64,000 nucleotides of DNA from the sequence record OZ346151.1. One strand, written 5' to 3'. Made by a program: the position numbers and the translations under genes. Positions 24,433-62,897 of the stretch are shown one piece after another. Source of the DNA: a phage. A model generated the notes under the pieces. It was given only the letters and a program-made list of their open reading frames with translations. It had not been told where the DNA came from and searched no databases. The stretch's first letter is position 1. The number at the start of each line of letters is the position of its first letter.

Positions 24433-24828
24433 TTACTGAAACAGTGCGGATAAATTACCTTCTGGTGGGAACTTATCTGCCAAAAACGGTGTTAGCACAG
24501 TAGCCTTCTGAAGATCTGGGGTCCACTCGTTGTTCAGAACATCCCAGTAGTACGCAATGTTGCTGTGTGGGTGCCGCATTACGAACTTTTTCCCTTCGTA
24601 GTCGTCTGAAACCTCTACAGAAGAAATAACAACAGAATCTTCAAGGGTTTCTTCATAGAAAGATCCCCCTTCAAATTTCCAACGAGATGCAAGAGCCCCT
24701 GCCTTGAACGCTGCAGATAACGGACTGTCGGCAAGAACATACATTTCTTGCACTCTGTCGCTGCGATCTTTGCTTCTTACGTTGTATACAGTATCTGAGC
24801 TATACTCAACACGGTATAGGCTTACCAT
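24433..24828 (-). CDS. hypothetical protein (paralog of 26640..27038)
   Basis: Shared block HP-S---YW----WTP with 26640..27038. Confidence 0.5.
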   Translation of the reverse strand: MVSLYRVEYSSDTVYNVRSKDRSDRVQEMYVLADSPLSAAFKAGALASRWKFEGGSFYEETLEDSVVISSVEVSDDYEGKKFVMRHPHSNIAYYWDVLNNEWTPDLQKATVLTPFLADKFPPEGNLSALFQ

Positions 24829-25519: not shown

Positions 25520-25789
25520 TTATTCCTCTACAATCTCATACACATCAGGAGTTACAATCAACTCTTCTCCGTTACCCGGTGCAACAAACACCACCAAACC
25601 TTCAGGTGTGTGCTTTTTAGCCATCTCGATAACATCTTCTCGCAGAGCTGGCTCCATCAGATCAAAACCTTCACCCAGGGCATCACGAACCACCTTCATA
25701 TAGTCAACTGGTTGTGCTTCAACAATCATGCCTTCAACCAGTCCACAGTTTTTGTCTGCCAGCTCAGTTTTGAATAATTTAATTTTCAT
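25520..25789 (-). CDS. hypothetical small protein
   Basis: 89 aa; ends ELIVTPDVYEIVEE. Confidence 0.45.
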   Translation of the reverse strand: MKIKLFKTELADKNCGLVEGMIVEAQPVDYMKVVRDALGEGFDLMEPALREDVIEMAKKHTPEGLVVFVAPGNGEELIVTPDVYEIVEE

Positions 25790-25926
25790 TTAGAGGTCTC
25801 CTCAATTATTTGATATTAATAGCCGTAACCTAACACATTAACTACAACTGCGATTGCAAACATAATTTCAAAGCATGCAATCTCTACATTTGGGACTAAT
25901 TTCTTAATCACACCCATTGTAGCACC

Positions 25927-26247
25927 TCATTCTCCAAAGTCAATCTTTACTTTGCCTTTCCCCTTACCTTTCTTTCCACCGCATTTAGCCAGCTGACGTG
26001 CTGCAACATCTACCATACGGTCAGTTGCCTCGTAAGCATCACTGCCTTTAGCCTTGGCAATAACTTCTTTTCCAGAATTGTCAAAAATGAACGCCATAAC
26101 TTCCTGGTGATCATTTTCAACTTTTACACTTACACGTGCATAGTTAACAGAGGGATGTAAACGCTCCAGCTTGGACATTTTGCGGGAAATAAAAGATACC
26201 ATACCTTCTGTGATTTCTACATTGTTGCCAGTGATTTCAATTTGCAT
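25927..26247 (-). CDS. hpf: Ribosome hibernation promoting factor / RaiA (YfiA-HPF family) homologue
   Basis: 106 aa; N-terminus MQIEITGNNVEITEGM closely matches E. coli HPF MQLNITGNNVEITEAL (recalled from memory); RBS AAGGAA. Confidence 0.7.
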   Translation of the reverse strand: MQIEITGNNVEITEGMVSFISRKMSKLERLHPSVNYARVSVKVENDHQEVMAFIFDNSGKEVIAKAKGSDAYEATDRMVDVAARQLAKCGGKKGKGKGKVKIDFGE

Positions 26248-26331
26248 AACGTGTTCCTTTTAAGGAAGAGGGAATAACTATCTCTCTTTGAAAACAATGA
26301 TACTAAATCTGAAGCGTTGTGTCAACAGTTT

Positions 26332-26639: not shown

Positions 26640-27038
26640 TCAGTTTAGCTTTTCTTCAACAACCCCATAACTTGGGGCAGAGTCAAGAGCTTTCTGGTTT
26701 AAAAGTGGCGTAGCAGAATCTGCAAACGGTGTCCAAGTTTTTGTTCTGGAATTCCAGTAATGCTTCACTCTGGAATCTGGATGCACTATAACAAAAACTT
26801 TTTCACTTGTCAACACATTAATTTCTTCTACACCCTTGCTGATAATTTCTCCGTCATAGCCCCCAGTCTGGTATCCTTCGTACCAGGTTCTTGCATAGGC
26901 ATAGCCAGCCTGCCAGCATGCAGCCTCCTCCGAGGTGGAGACTACGTAGAAGTCTTTCTCAAATTCCGGAATACGCCCTTGCTTTACGCTCCAAGCTCCG
27001 CGAATTTTCATTGTTACTTTGAAAAGCTTGTTCTTCAT
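26640..27038 (-). CDS. hypothetical protein (paralog of 24433..24828)
   Basis: 132 aa; shared HPDSRVKHYWNSRTKTWTP block. Confidence 0.5.
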   Translation of the reverse strand: MKNKLFKVTMKIRGAWSVKQGRIPEFEKDFYVVSTSEEAACWQAGYAYARTWYEGYQTGGYDGEIISKGVEEINVLTSEKVFVIVHPDSRVKHYWNSRTKTWTPFADSATPLLNQKALDSAPSYGVVEEKLN

Positions 27039-27039
27039 A

Positions 27040-27294
27040 CTACCGCTCTACAATCTCTACGTCTGTTCCTACACCGAAGGCATAGTAATGTTCTTCCCCA
27101 AAGTAATACTTGGGGACACCCGCTTTGATCAGATCTAACCCGCGAATAAATACCACACCGTGTGATACAGTGGAATGCTTCTGACGCACAGGATCGTTGT
27201 CAGGCAACCATTCAAAGTACACCGCAGGTACAACCTTTCCCTTCAGGAAGGATTGTCCCAAGTAGACGTTAGAATCAAGAATTTTAACCTTCAT
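27040..27294 (-). CDS. small protein, MKVK family
   Basis: MKVKILDSNVYLGQ...GKVVPA...GTDVEIVER. Confidence 0.5.
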   Translation of the reverse strand: MKVKILDSNVYLGQSFLKGKVVPAVYFEWLPDNDPVRQKHSTVSHGVVFIRGLDLIKAGVPKYYFGEEHYYAFGVGTDVEIVER

Positions 27295-27511
27295 TCTCGT
27301 CCTCCACTATCTCTGCATCCTCACCAAGGGCAAAGTTGTAGGTCCACTGGCTGTCAAAGCAGTCCTGAGATGCACCAGCGGCAATAAGATCTGCACCTTT
27401 TATTTTTAAAAGGTCAGGATAATCTTCGTTAGGGATAGCGGTAAACACTTTCCCCACTAAGGGCTCCTGACCAATATAGAAGCTTGAATCTAAAACTTTA
27501 ACTTTCATCAA
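27284..27511 (-). CDS. small protein, MKVK family
   Basis: MMKVKVLDSSFYIGQ...GKVFTA...GEDAEIVEDE. Confidence 0.5.
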   Translation of the reverse strand: MMKVKVLDSSFYIGQEPLVGKVFTAIPNEDYPDLLKIKGADLIAAGASQDCFDSQWTYNFALGEDAEIVEDENEG

Positions 27512-30403: not shown

Positions 30404-30937
30404 CTACAAATGGTCGCTGAGGGTGTCAAGAAAATTATCCCGTTCTTTCTCAGAGTTTTCATGTGTGTAGCTGAAAAACATATCGAGAATAACCTTATTG
30501 ATATATTCCAGCTCCTCTGTGTTCAGATGCTTAGCAGGATCTACAATGACATCCCAAATATCATACAGACCGCACTCATGATACCCATAACGCCACTCAA
30601 TTGTCAAGCTGAGCGGCAAATCTTTACCTTCACAAACAACCTTCCATCTACATATGTTGGTATCTGGTCGTACCTGTGCACGGTACACCTGCACAAAATC
30701 CAATTTGAATTTGAGGTACTCGTCATACAATTTAAGCACAAAGCTCTCGATTTGTGGAGACACTTTTGCAGCAAACTGTGCGTATTCGTACTTGCACTGG
30801 ATGATCTTTCTGCGTTTTGCAGTTAAATTTTTTGCCGCCAGTTGTTCTTCAGTGTATCTCCACCTACGATCAACAAACGCAACAGGGTCTTTGTCCCCAT
30901 AGAGGTCTTCCCAGTTAATCAGAAGCATACCTGTCAC
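30404..30937 (-). CDS. hypothetical protein
   Basis: 177 aa ORF. Confidence 0.5.
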   Translation of the reverse strand: MTGMLLINWEDLYGDKDPVAFVDRRWRYTEEQLAAKNLTAKRRKIIQCKYEYAQFAAKVSPQIESFVLKLYDEYLKFKLDFVQVYRAQVRPDTNICRWKVVCEGKDLPLSLTIEWRYGYHECGLYDIWDVIVDPAKHLNTEELEYINKVILDMFFSYTHENSEKERDNFLDTLSDHL

Positions 30938-31167
30938 TCCTCCACAACTTCAAGGCCTTTACCGCCTCGCTCTGGCAGATTACTTAAAGATAGGTAATAC
31001 ATATAATCAGGAGAGATCCTGCCAGACTCTGCACCTGCAGCTAGTAAATCCTTCCCTTTAACCAGGACAACATTCTCGTTTGCAGATAGCCGTTTTGCTT
31101 CCACAATTTTACCAACACAGTCAACCAAGGAAGGGTACCCTAAATCTGTAAGAAATTTAACTTTCAT
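30934..31167 (-). CDS. small protein, MKVK family
   Basis: MKVKFLTDLGY...GKIVEA...LVKGKDLLAAGA...LEVVEE. Confidence 0.5.
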   Translation of the reverse strand: MKVKFLTDLGYPSLVDCVGKIVEAKRLSANENVVLVKGKDLLAAGAESGRISPDYMYYLSLSNLPERGGKGLEVVEE

Positions 31168-62809: not shown

Positions 62810-62820
62810 AATAGTAAATA

Positions 62821-62897
62821 CTCCGCGTAGCTCAGCTTGGTAGAGCGCCTGATTTGGGATCAGGAGGTCGAGTGTTCGAATCACTCCGTGGAGACCA
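62821..62897 (+). tRNA. tRNA-Pro (anticodon TGG), CCA encoded
   Basis: Acceptor CTCCGCG/CGTGGAG (C1:G72 as in Pro tRNAs), anticodon loop TTTGGGA, T-loop TTCGAAT. Confidence 0.85.

What the first reader, a model, noticed from the sequence alone, without database searches (positions are those of the whole stretch)
25927..26247. Phage-encoded ribosome hibernation factor (HPF/RaiA) homologue
The 106-aa protein begins MQIEITGNNVEITEG..., nearly identical in its first 14 residues to E. coli HPF as recalled, and keeps the overall length and charge pattern of the YfiA/HPF family, with an added Gly/Lys-rich tail (GGKKGKGKGK). A phage copy could silence or remodel host ribosomes during takeover.
Basis: partly seen in the sequence, partly recalled or inferred. 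Interest (0 to 1): 0.7.

Follow-up and report, generated by a model that had tools for sequence, protein, structure and literature searches.

The report
Known phage copy of ribosome hibernation factor
The window is an rV5-like E. coli phage, and the flagged gene is a real, well-conserved homologue of the bacterial ribosome hibernation factor HPF; this was already annotated in 2006 and tested in 2019, when no stable ribosome binding was seen, so its role is still open.

Summary
A 106-aa ORF lies on the minus strand at 25927-26247. It matches Pfam Ribosomal_S30AE (E 4e-15) and TIGR00741 above their curated cut-offs. It is 43% identical to E. coli HPF and 25% identical to RaiA. Its predicted fold superposes on solved HPF structures.

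The window is a Vequintavirus (99.5% identical to phage nomo). The gene is rV5 ORF144, annotated "sigma 54 modulation factor" since 2006 and present in about 119 phage records. Mizuno et al. 2019 reported it as a viral HPF and expressed it in E. coli. They found it in crude extract but not in salt-washed 70S/100S ribosomes, and 100S levels did not change. The finding is therefore already known.

- The gene is ancient in this lineage. It is syntenic with a 64%-identical relative, and synonymous sites are saturated.
- It is under strong purifying selection (dN/dS 0.04-0.13).
- It is the first gene behind a conserved sigma-70 promoter.
- Residues that are rare in the family sit at several ribosome-contact positions (Y30L, T53F, H55F, K80V, K89G).
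- The end of helix alpha-2 is replaced by a Gly/Lys tail, unique in the family sample, that ends in a conserved K-Φ-D-aromatic motif (Φ = hydrophobic).

The most likely role is a weak, reversible binder of idle ribosomes at the decoding centre. This is unproven.

The parts
25927..26247 (-). Coding sequence of the phage HPF homologue (106 aa plus TGA stop at 25927-25929); equals rV5 ORF144 / ABI79209
   Evidence: ORF list and sequence. Pfam PF02482 and TIGR00741 above cut-off. 97-100% identical to annotated Vequintavirus proteins.
25981..26247 (-). [quoted passage not shown]
   Evidence: AlphaFold2 pLDDT 85-95, elements E2-8 H14-30 E34-43 E48-56 E61-68 H71-93. Foldseek top hits are E. coli and V. 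cholerae HPF. Retains K23, K26, R29, E44, D76, R84, Q85, K88; rare residues at L30, F53, F55, V81.
25930..25980 (-). Residues 90-106: Gly/Lys-rich basic tail GGKKGKGKGKVKIDFGE (net +4), which replaces the canonical [HY]K[EG]K end of helix alpha-2 and ends in a K-Φ-D-aromatic motif. Holds G90 in place of K89, and K92 equivalent to E. coli K91.
   Evidence: pLDDT below 50 for residues 94-106. None of 114 family representatives has a (GK)x3 run: 6 Gly in the 18 residues after K88 (C89-E106) against a family mean of 1.06 and a maximum of 5. The K-Φ-D-Ar end occurs only in the two phage lineages. The tail is nearly invariant across 13 alleles.
26297..26325 (-). Sigma-70-type promoter TTGACA-17-TATCAT, about 50 nt upstream of the ATG (rV5 'P144')
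   Evidence: 11 of 12 consensus match. Annotated as 'Sigma70-type promoter; P144' in DQ832317. TTGACA and the -10 hexamer are conserved in all Vequintavirus alleles, and a TTGACA is also present upstream in the P0004 lineage. Activity was not tested.
26254..26259 (-). Shine-Dalgarno-like AAGGAA, 6 nt upstream of the ATG
   Evidence: Read directly from the sequence; conserved in the alleles.
25816..25917 (-). 33-aa hydrophobic ORF (MGVIKKLVPNVEIACFEIMFAIAVVVNVLGYGY). It starts 9 nt after the HPF stop, with a GAGG overlapping the stop, so it is probably co-transcribed and translationally coupled.
   Evidence: Translation. phrog_15151, unknown function. Annotated as rV5 ORF145. Absent from the P0004 lineage.
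25520..25789 (-). 89-aa acidic ORF downstream in the same unit (rV5 ORF146). It is not an HPF, although some records label it 'sigma 54 modulation factor'.
   Evidence: No Pfam hit. phrog_11868, unknown function. The mislabel is visible. A syntenic orthologue (58% identity) sits in the P0004 lineage.

Best explanation
The gene encodes a genuine but diverged member of the HPF/YfiA family. It derives from a gammaproteobacterial short HPF and has been kept as a core gene of Vequintavirus. It is the first gene behind a host-type sigma-70 promoter.

Shown here: family membership, the predicted fold, strong purifying selection, ancient and syntenic inheritance, promoter conservation, the substitutions at contact positions, and a tail that is unique in the family sample.

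Inferred: the protein docks on vacant 30S/70S ribosomes at the A/P-site decoding region, as every characterised family member does. It would use the retained basic face (K23, K26, R29, R84, K88, K92). Its contacts are altered, so binding would be weaker and salt-sensitive. The flexible polybasic tail leaves helix alpha-2 at the point where the RaiA tail leaves and runs toward the mRNA-exit, anti-Shine-Dalgarno and RMF site.

The proposed net effect is that ribosomes idled during infection (after host mRNA loss, or in a slow-growing host) are held as protected, monomeric and quickly re-usable 70S particles. They would not be degraded, and host RMF/HPF would not lock them into 100S dimers.

Confidence that this is an HPF-family protein is about 0.97. 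The confidence value below refers to the proposed mechanism.
For: Family and fold. Closest to short HPF and not RaiA: 43% against 25% identity.

Functional constraint: dN/dS is 0.04-0.13 against 10 other Vequintavirus alleles, and the tail is nearly invariant. The gene is present in 119 of about 121 records that carry the region.

Ancient and vertical inheritance: the gene sits at the same position in a fully syntenic 12-kb block of a lineage whose HPF is 64% identical. Synonymous sites against E. coli hpf are saturated, even in the N-terminus where the amino acids are identical.

Retained contacts: K23, K26, R29, E44, D76, R84, Q85, K88 and K92 match family consensus and the contact list from cryo-EM of enterobacterial HPF.

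Weak binding is consistent with the substitutions Y30L, T53F, H55F, K80V and K89G, and with loss of the protein from ribosomes pelleted through 500 mM NH4Cl.

Tail direction: the YfiA tail progresses toward the RMF site and blocks RMF. The phage tail has 18 residues after K88, between HPF (8) and RaiA (26).

Promoter.
Against: The only experiment found is negative. There was no phage HPF in purified 70S/100S ribosomes and no change in the ribosome profile.

Several strictly conserved ribosome contacts are lost: K80 and K89, plus the T53/H62 and H55/E60 motifs. This could mean real loss of ribosome binding.

Expression timing is inferred only from a promoter consensus. No transcriptome data were found.

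No knockout phenotype is known. The path of the tail on the ribosome is inferred by analogy with RaiA, whose own tail end is disordered in the maps. An A/P-site blocker made early would also inhibit the phage's own translation unless binding is readily reversible.
Confidence: 0.42

Rival explanations
1. Anti-hibernation competitor, the hypothesis of Mizuno et al. The phage protein occupies the HPF/RaiA site, or blocks the RMF site with its tail. It does not promote dimerisation and is easily displaced by initiation factors, mRNA and tRNA. Host 100S formation is prevented or reversed, and ribosomes stay available for phage mRNAs.
For: Proposed in PMC6375957. The tail replaces the C-terminal KHKDKLKQH segment of short HPF and is long enough to reach the RMF side, as the RaiA tail does. 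Altered contacts suggest lower affinity. RMF-linked dormancy has been reported as an outcome of an anti-phage system, DRT2 (review). This overlaps with the best explanation and differs mainly in net effect: release of translation as opposed to protective parking.
Against: Expression in E. coli gave no discernible change in the small 100S peak, although the cells were not in stationary phase. A protein that is not retained on ribosomes is a poor competitor against tightly bound HPF, RaiA and RMF. There is no direct evidence.
Confidence: 0.2
2. Host translation shut-off. The protein silences host ribosomes during takeover by blocking the decoding centre.
For: Family members block the A/P sites and inhibit translation. 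The gene has an early-type host promoter.
Against: An A/P-site blocker cannot tell host mRNA from phage mRNA. Cells expressing it grew to OD 1 with normal 70S profiles, and no toxicity was reported. It was not retained on ribosomes.
Confidence: 0.1
3. Neofunctionalised HPF fold with a non-ribosomal target. [quoted passage not shown]
For: Negative ribosome association. Lineage-specific replacements sit exactly at ribosome-contact positions and are shared by both phage lineages: L30, F55, and loss of K80 and K89. The terminal motif is unique and conserved. The protein scores far below the HPF and RaiA equivalog cut-offs.
Against: Most of the basic RNA-binding face and the family signature D-x-Y...D...RQL-K are conserved under strong purifying selection. 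That pattern is most simply explained by the ancestral 16S rRNA target. No alternative partner is suggested by the gene's neighbours, which are all of unknown function.
Confidence: 0.15
4. Shield against ribosome-directed defence or toxins. Occupying the decoding centre would protect 16S rRNA or the A site from host RNases and abortive-infection toxins that act on ribosomes.
For: HPF family proteins protect ribosomes from nucleolytic degradation (abstract of PMC8406268). The rest is inference.
Against: No specific defence partner is known, and no data were found in the literature searches.
Confidence: 0.08

Closest known systems
rV5 ORF144 / gp144 (ABI79209), 'sigma 54 modulation factor' = viral HPF of Mizuno et al. 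2019
   Same: The same gene. It is 97% identical, at the same locus behind the same P144 promoter, and followed by the same ORF145 and ORF146.
   Different: The window allele (murica/nomo type) has 106 aa with GNNVEIT, as in E. coli HPF. rV5 has 105 aa with GNVEIT. A few conservative substitutions are also present (R22H, V34A).
E. coli short HPF (YhbH, 95 aa; PDB 2rql, 6h4n)
   Same: 43% identity over 92 residues; N-terminal 14 residues 12/14 identical; same fold (TM 0.79-0.88). Retains K23, K26, E44, D75, R83, Q84, K87 and K91 equivalents.
   Different: Rare residues at contact positions Y30L, T53F, H55F, K80V and K89G. One-residue insertion (K60). The C-terminal KHKDKLKQH is replaced by CGGKKGKGKGKVKIDFGE. 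Overall pI is 9.0 against 6.5. Scores 65 bits against the 125-bit equivalog cut-off. No 100S promotion or stable ribosome association was seen when it was expressed in E. coli.
E. coli RaiA / YfiA / protein Y (113 aa)
   Same: Same fold and the same binding-site family. Both carry a C-terminal extension beyond helix alpha-2, which in RaiA heads toward and blocks the RMF site.
   Different: Only 25% identity, and 23 bits against a 158-bit cut-off. The RaiA tail is mixed to acidic (…SVKDANFVEEVEEE). The phage tail is Gly/Lys-rich and shorter: 18 residues against 26 after the conserved RQLxK. NCBI's automatic name 'RaiA' on some phage records is therefore imprecise.
Other phage HPF-fold proteins (Cronobacter phage GAP32 K4F6Q6, E. 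coli jumbo phage PBECO4 L7TII8, Xanthomonas phage XaC1)
   Same: Phage-encoded Ribosomal_S30AE-fold proteins of about 110 aa in large myoviruses.
   Different: Only 22-26% identity to the window protein in the structural alignments (GAP32, PBECO4). They belong to unrelated jumbo-phage lineages, so they are probably independent acquisitions. None shares the Gly/Lys tail as far as could be seen; this was not examined residue by residue.

Membership tests
HPF/YfiA superfamily (Pfam PF02482 Ribosomal_S30AE; TIGR00741) | Significant profile match above the curated threshold over the whole domain | tested here: met
   PF02482 56.7 bits against GA 23.7, residues 3-89 on profile positions 1-83 of 88. 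TIGR00741 56.8 bits against 40.9.
HPF/YfiA superfamily | [quoted passage not shown] | tested here: met
   AlphaFold2 model with pLDDT 85-95 for residues 1-90. The top 35 Foldseek hits are all family members, for example 4hei with TM 0.82/0.94 and rmsd 1.0 A. This is a predicted structure, not a solved one.
HPF/YfiA superfamily | Conserved basic and signature residues that contact 16S rRNA (K23, K26, R/K29, D75, K80, R83, K87, K89, K91; T53/H62 and H55/E60 motifs) | tested here: inconclusive
   Retained: K23, K26, R29, D76, R84, K88, K92. Changed: K80V (V in 12% of family representatives), K89G (1.4%), T53F (0%), H55F (4%), Y30L (6.5%).
HPF/YfiA superfamily | Binds the 30S decoding region of 70S/30S ribosomes | not testable with these tools
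   The published test was negative after a 500 mM NH4Cl cushion on late-exponential cells, and the authors state the caveats.
Short HPF of gammaproteobacteria (NCBIfam NF007780 equivalog) | Equivalog-level score (125 bits or more) | tested here: not met
   65.2 bits. The best cellular relatives are 44% identical or less across 1.84 billion representatives.
Short HPF of gammaproteobacteria | Converts RMF-induced 90S dimers to 100S and is found in 100S particles | not testable with these tools
   The literature reports no effect on the 100S peak and no protein in the 100S fraction. RMF-dependence was not assayed.
RaiA/YfiA (NCBIfam NF007654 equivalog) | Equivalog-level score (158 bits or more) and a RaiA-type C-terminal tail | tested here: not met
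   22.8 bits. 25% identity. The tail has a different composition.
Long HPF (Firmicutes type) | C-terminal dimerisation domain following a linker | tested here: not met
   The protein is 106 aa. No second Pfam domain was found. Residues 94-106 are predicted disordered.

The most novel reading that the evidence does not exclude
The Vequintavirus protein is not a hibernation factor. It is a viral antagonist of host ribosome hibernation. Its re-engineered contact surface would bind the HPF/RaiA site only transiently. Its polybasic tail, unique in the family sample, with the conserved terminal K-Φ-D-aromatic motif (Φ = hydrophobic), would occupy the RMF and anti-Shine-Dalgarno region. That would prevent or reverse 100S dimerisation and dormancy-type defence, and let the phage use ribosomes in slow-growing or stressed gut E. 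coli.
Probability: 0.2. Interest if true: 0.65.

Novelty: already known. Interest (0 to 1): 0.3.

Why it matters
Ribosome hibernation decides whether non-growing bacteria keep a usable translation machinery, and dormancy is a common outcome of anti-phage defence. A phage that carries its own HPF-like factor could show how viruses manage or subvert that state.

The existence of the gene is not new. It has been annotated since 2006, was highlighted and tested in 2019, and is present in every sequenced Vequintavirus.

What is still open is the function. Here the gene is shown to be old in the lineage and under strong constraint, so it must do something useful. The specific changes found here point to a modified mode of action. 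Those changes are the altered contact residues and the unique basic tail with a conserved end motif. A low-salt binding assay, cryo-EM and a deletion phage could test that mode of action directly.

A practical point also follows. Annotation of this gene and its neighbour is inconsistent across GenBank: 'RaiA', 'sigma 54 modulation factor', 'ATP-dependent protease La', or hypothetical.

Tried and rejected
1. A second HPF copy. Several records list two 'sigma 54 modulation factors' in this region. The second one, at 25520-25789, has no Pfam hit and only an unknown-function PHROG. I rejected it as a propagated mis-annotation.

2. Recent capture from E. coli. The near-identical N-terminus suggested this, but a codon-level alignment shows that almost every synonymous site differs. 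The gene is also syntenic in a lineage with 64% protein identity. Rejected.

3. RaiA identity, as NCBI names it in some records. Rejected on 25% identity and 23 of 158 bits.

4. A structured 5'-UTR element. A 7-bp hairpin between promoter and RBS is predicted, but it has only one compensatory change and an A-C mismatch in the window itself. Nothing was found in Rfam. Left as weak.

5. Newer literature on phage HPF. Five searches found nothing after Mizuno 2019 and Mathieu 2020. A search for Vequintavirus transcriptomics found nothing usable.

6. Word-indexed protein search and IMG/VR scan. These returned only near-identical Vequintavirus copies plus P0004. The exhaustive HMMER scan was needed to show that the lineage is isolated.

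7. Resemblance of the tail end (VKIDFGE) to the RaiA tail (VKDANFVEE). MAFFT placed them together, but the stretch is too short to test. I make no claim from it.

Full report
**1. Observation**

The window holds an ATG-initiated ORF of 106 codons on the minus strand at 25927-26247, with the TGA stop at 25927-25929. An AAGGAA Shine-Dalgarno-like sequence lies at 26254-26259. Residues 1-15 are MQIEITGNNVEITEG, and residues 90-99 are GGKKGKGKGK. I fetched authentic E. coli K-12 hpf and raiA from NC_000913.3. BLASTP gives 43% identity to HPF over 92 residues (E 1e-21), with 12 of the first 14 residues identical. Identity to RaiA is only 25%.

**2. Family assignment**

- Pfam PF02482 (Ribosomal_S30AE) matches residues 3-89 at E 4.2e-15, 56.7 bits against a gathering score of 23.7.
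- NCBIfam TIGR00741 (HPF/YfiA family) scores 56.8 bits against a 40.9 cut-off.
- The two E. coli-type equivalog models are not reached. HPF NF007780 scores 65 bits against 125, and RaiA NF007654 scores 23 bits against 158.
- A sequence search of the PDB puts E. coli HPF first (2rql/4v8h/6h4n, E about 1e-14 to 4e-15).
- I built an AlphaFold2 model from a 78-sequence alignment. It is confident for residues 1-90 (pLDDT block means 85-95) and shows the β-α-β-β-β-α topology. Residues 94-106 are below pLDDT 50.
- The top 35 Foldseek hits in the PDB are all HPF, RaiA, pY or long-HPF N-domains. Examples are V. cholerae HPF (TM 0.82/0.94, rmsd 1.0 Å) and E. coli HPF in the 100S ribosome (TM 0.79/0.88).

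The observation and the family-level interpretation are therefore confirmed.

**3. What the genome is, and prior knowledge**

The surrounding 5 kb is 99.5% identical to Escherichia phage nomo and 96-99% identical to more than 100 other Vequintavirus (rV5-like) myophages. The protein is 93-100% identical in 118 of the 119 phage records that tblastn matched; the remaining record is a mis-included Salmonella genome. It is variously annotated 'sigma 54 modulation factor', 'ribosome hibernation (promoting) factor', 'RaiA', 'hypothetical protein' and, wrongly, 'ATP-dependent protease La type I'. In the original rV5 record (DQ832317) it is ORF144, with a curated 'Sigma70-type promoter; P144' immediately upstream.

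Mizuno et al. 2019 (Nat Commun 10:752, PMC6375957) listed this protein (ABI79209) among virus-encoded ribosomal proteins and tested it.
- They expressed it from pBAD24 in E. coli NM522 and harvested at OD600 = 1.
- Mass spectrometry detected it in crude extract. It was not detected in 70S or 100S ribosomes pelleted through 1.1 M sucrose with 500 mM NH4Cl.
- The 100S peak did not change.
- The authors name growth phase, salt stripping or real loss of binding as possible reasons.

Mathieu et al. 2020 noted hpf again in five new rV5-like phages. Searches for later work on phage HPF found nothing. The finding is therefore already known.

An exhaustive HMMER scan of 1.84 billion cluster representatives found one close relative, P0004 (103 aa, 64-66% identity). 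All other hits are 44% identical or less. The phage protein is therefore an isolated, diverged lineage.

P0004 sits on phage-like contigs of 125-137 kb. The 12 kb around it is gene-for-gene syntenic with window 20-32 kb, and neighbouring proteins are 28-86% identical. The gene was therefore present before these two lineages split.

Against E. coli hpf, synonymous positions differ almost everywhere, including in the N-terminal stretch where the amino acids are identical. That identity reflects selection and not recent transfer. This tempers the 'relatively recent' transfer suggested in 2019.

Within Vequintavirus, Nei-Gojobori dN/dS of the window allele against 10 other alleles is 0.04-0.13, at dS up to 0.6. 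This is strong purifying selection. Among 50,697 phage records, HPF homologues detectable with E. coli HPF are almost all Vequintavirus. The exceptions are a Xanthomonas jumbo phage and a few short fragments. BFVD adds the jumbo phages GAP32 and PBECO4 at 22-26% identity.

I aligned the protein with 139 family representatives and used the contact list from cryo-EM structures of enterobacterial and Pseudomonas HPF-ribosome complexes (bioRxiv 10.1101/2025.10.07.680626). Positions below are in E. coli numbering unless marked 'phage'.

- Retained: K23, K26, R29 (family R/K), E44, D75 (phage D76), R83 (R84), Q84 (Q85), K87 (K88) and K91 (K92).
- Changed to residues rare in the family at other contact positions:

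| Position | Change | Frequency of the phage residue in the family |
|---|---|---|
| Y30 | to L | 6.5% |
| T53 | to F | 0% |
| H55 | to F | 4% |
| K80 | to V | 12% |
| K89 | to G | 1.4% |
| E51 (consensus) | to M | not counted |

L30, F55 and the loss of K80 and K89 are shared with P0004, so they are old features of the lineage.

The canonical end of helix α2 ([HY]K[EG]K…; KHKDKLKQH in E. coli) is replaced by CGGKKGKGKGKVKIDFGE.
- None of 114 representatives has a (GK)×3 run.
- The 18 residues after K88 hold 6 Gly, against a family mean of 1.06 and a maximum of 5.
- A terminal K-Φ-D-aromatic motif (Φ = hydrophobic; KIDF here, KWDY in P0004) occurs only in the two phage lineages, although the linker between it and the core differs.
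- The core has net charge -1 and the tail +4, which gives pI 9.0 against 6.5 for HPF and 6.2 for RaiA.
- The tail is almost invariant across alleles. The only changes are K→R, G→R, V→I and one VK deletion.

**6. Expression context**

A TTGACA-17-TATCAT site (11 of 12 matches) lies at 26325-26297 on the coding strand, in the 84-nt gap upstream of the gene. It coincides with rV5 P144 and is conserved in all alleles. The overall count of promoter-like sites in the region is not above the shuffled expectation, so the evidence for this site is its position and its conservation.

Kropinski et al. 2013 place ORF144 in the non-structural unit, genes 82-163. They report only sigma-70-like promoters plus a T4-late-like motif for the structural genes.

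Two ORFs follow closely downstream. The first is a 33-aa hydrophobic ORF at 25816-25917, which starts 9 nt after the stop with a GAGG overlapping the stop. The second is an 89-aa acidic ORF at 25520-25789. Both are of unknown function. The next curated promoter is P150. No transcriptome data were found, so 'early' expression is inferred and not shown.

**7. Mechanism**

Every characterised member of this family binds the 30S subunit between head and body. It covers the A- and P-site mRNA and tRNA positions, and it protects idle ribosomes. RaiA's longer tail heads toward the RMF site and prevents RMF binding and 100S formation.

Most of the basic face is conserved, and purifying selection is strong. 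The most economical reading is that the phage protein still targets this site. Its interface is modified: two exposed Phe residues on β3, and loss of K80 and K89. Its flexible polybasic tail leaves α2 where the RaiA tail does and is intermediate in length, with 18 residues after the conserved RQLxK lysine against 8 in HPF and 26 in RaiA.

Weak, salt-sensitive and reversible binding would explain the 2019 negative result. It would also suit a phage that needs ribosomes back quickly. I therefore favour a 'reversible parking and protection of idle ribosomes as 70S monomers' role, at about 0.4.

The rivals are:
- The closely related 'anti-hibernation competitor' idea of Mizuno et al., about 0.2.
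- A neofunctionalised non-ribosomal role, about 0.15.
- Host shut-off, about 0.1. This is disfavoured because an A/P-site blocker cannot discriminate between mRNAs, and expressing cells grew with normal profiles.
- Shielding against ribosome-directed toxins, below 0.1.

None of these steps beyond family membership is demonstrated.

**8. Verdict**

The finding is already known.

The remaining interest lies in the unresolved function and in the lineage-specific features documented here. These make concrete experiments possible: low-salt binding, an RMF competition assay, cryo-EM, and deletion or tail-truncation phages. Interest is 0.3.

Noticed in passing
window 25520-25789 (-): This 89-aa acidic ORF is annotated 'sigma 54 modulation factor' in several Vequintavirus records (for example nomo_102 and nom_135). 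It has no Pfam hit and only an unknown-function PHROG (phrog_11868). The label looks like a mis-annotation propagated from phage APECc02.
   Followed up: yes
window 25927-26247 (-), as annotated in public records: The HPF gene is labelled 'ATP-dependent protease La type I' in OR062525, OR062530, MT884009 and MT884011, and 'hypothetical protein' in many other records. PHROGs files it in phrog_12469 'unknown function', although it clearly matches PF02482.
   Followed up: partly
phage records MG0656xx: Eighteen records named 'Campylobacter phage' with host C. jejuni match this region alongside E. coli Vequintavirus; the listed ones encode an HPF protein 94-97% identical to the window's. The host label looks doubtful.
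   Followed up: no
window 25816-25917 (-): A 33-aa hydrophobic ORF (MGVIKKLVPNVEIACFEIMFAIAVVVNVLGYGY) starts 9 nt after the HPF stop, with a GAGG overlapping the stop. It is probably translationally coupled. It is conserved in Vequintavirus (phrog_15151) but absent from the P0004 lineage.
   Followed up: partly
window 24433-24828 and 26640-27038 (-); 27040-27294, 27284-27511 and 30934-31167 (-): Paralogous families of small ORFs flank the gene. One is a pair of phrog_7379 proteins of 131 and 132 aa. The other is a set of 75-84-aa proteins beginning MKVK… and ending in acidic …EIVE motifs. Their function is unknown.
   Followed up: partly
window 62085-62897 (+): ARAGORN calls a cluster of seven tRNAs: Arg-TCT, Tyr-GTA, Ser-TGA, Thr-TGT, Met-CAT, Pro-TGG, and a 99-nt tRNA-like gene at 62554-62652 with an odd four-base anticodon call. 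That last one scores 35.5 bits with Rfam tRNA.
   Followed up: no
window about 26262-26287 (-), 5' UTR of the HPF gene: A predicted 7-bp hairpin (AAGAGGG/CCCTCTT) lies between the promoter and the RBS. It is conserved across alleles but has only one compensatory change, and there is an A-C mismatch in the window allele. The evidence for a functional element is weak.
   Followed up: partly
protein P0007: A 1160-aa protein from the representative library matches residues 36-82 of the query in eight separate stretches (E 5e-9). It could be a repeat protein with HPF-like beta-strand units, or a spurious match.
   Followed up: no
window 26224-26229 (-), codons 7-8: The window allele (murica/nomo type, 106 aa) keeps GNNVEIT as in E. 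coli HPF. rV5 and most other alleles, and also P0004, have GNVEIT (105 aa). This is a one-codon indel in the beta1-alpha1 loop, at a position where His8/Asn8 contacts 16S rRNA in enterobacterial HPF.
   Followed up: partly
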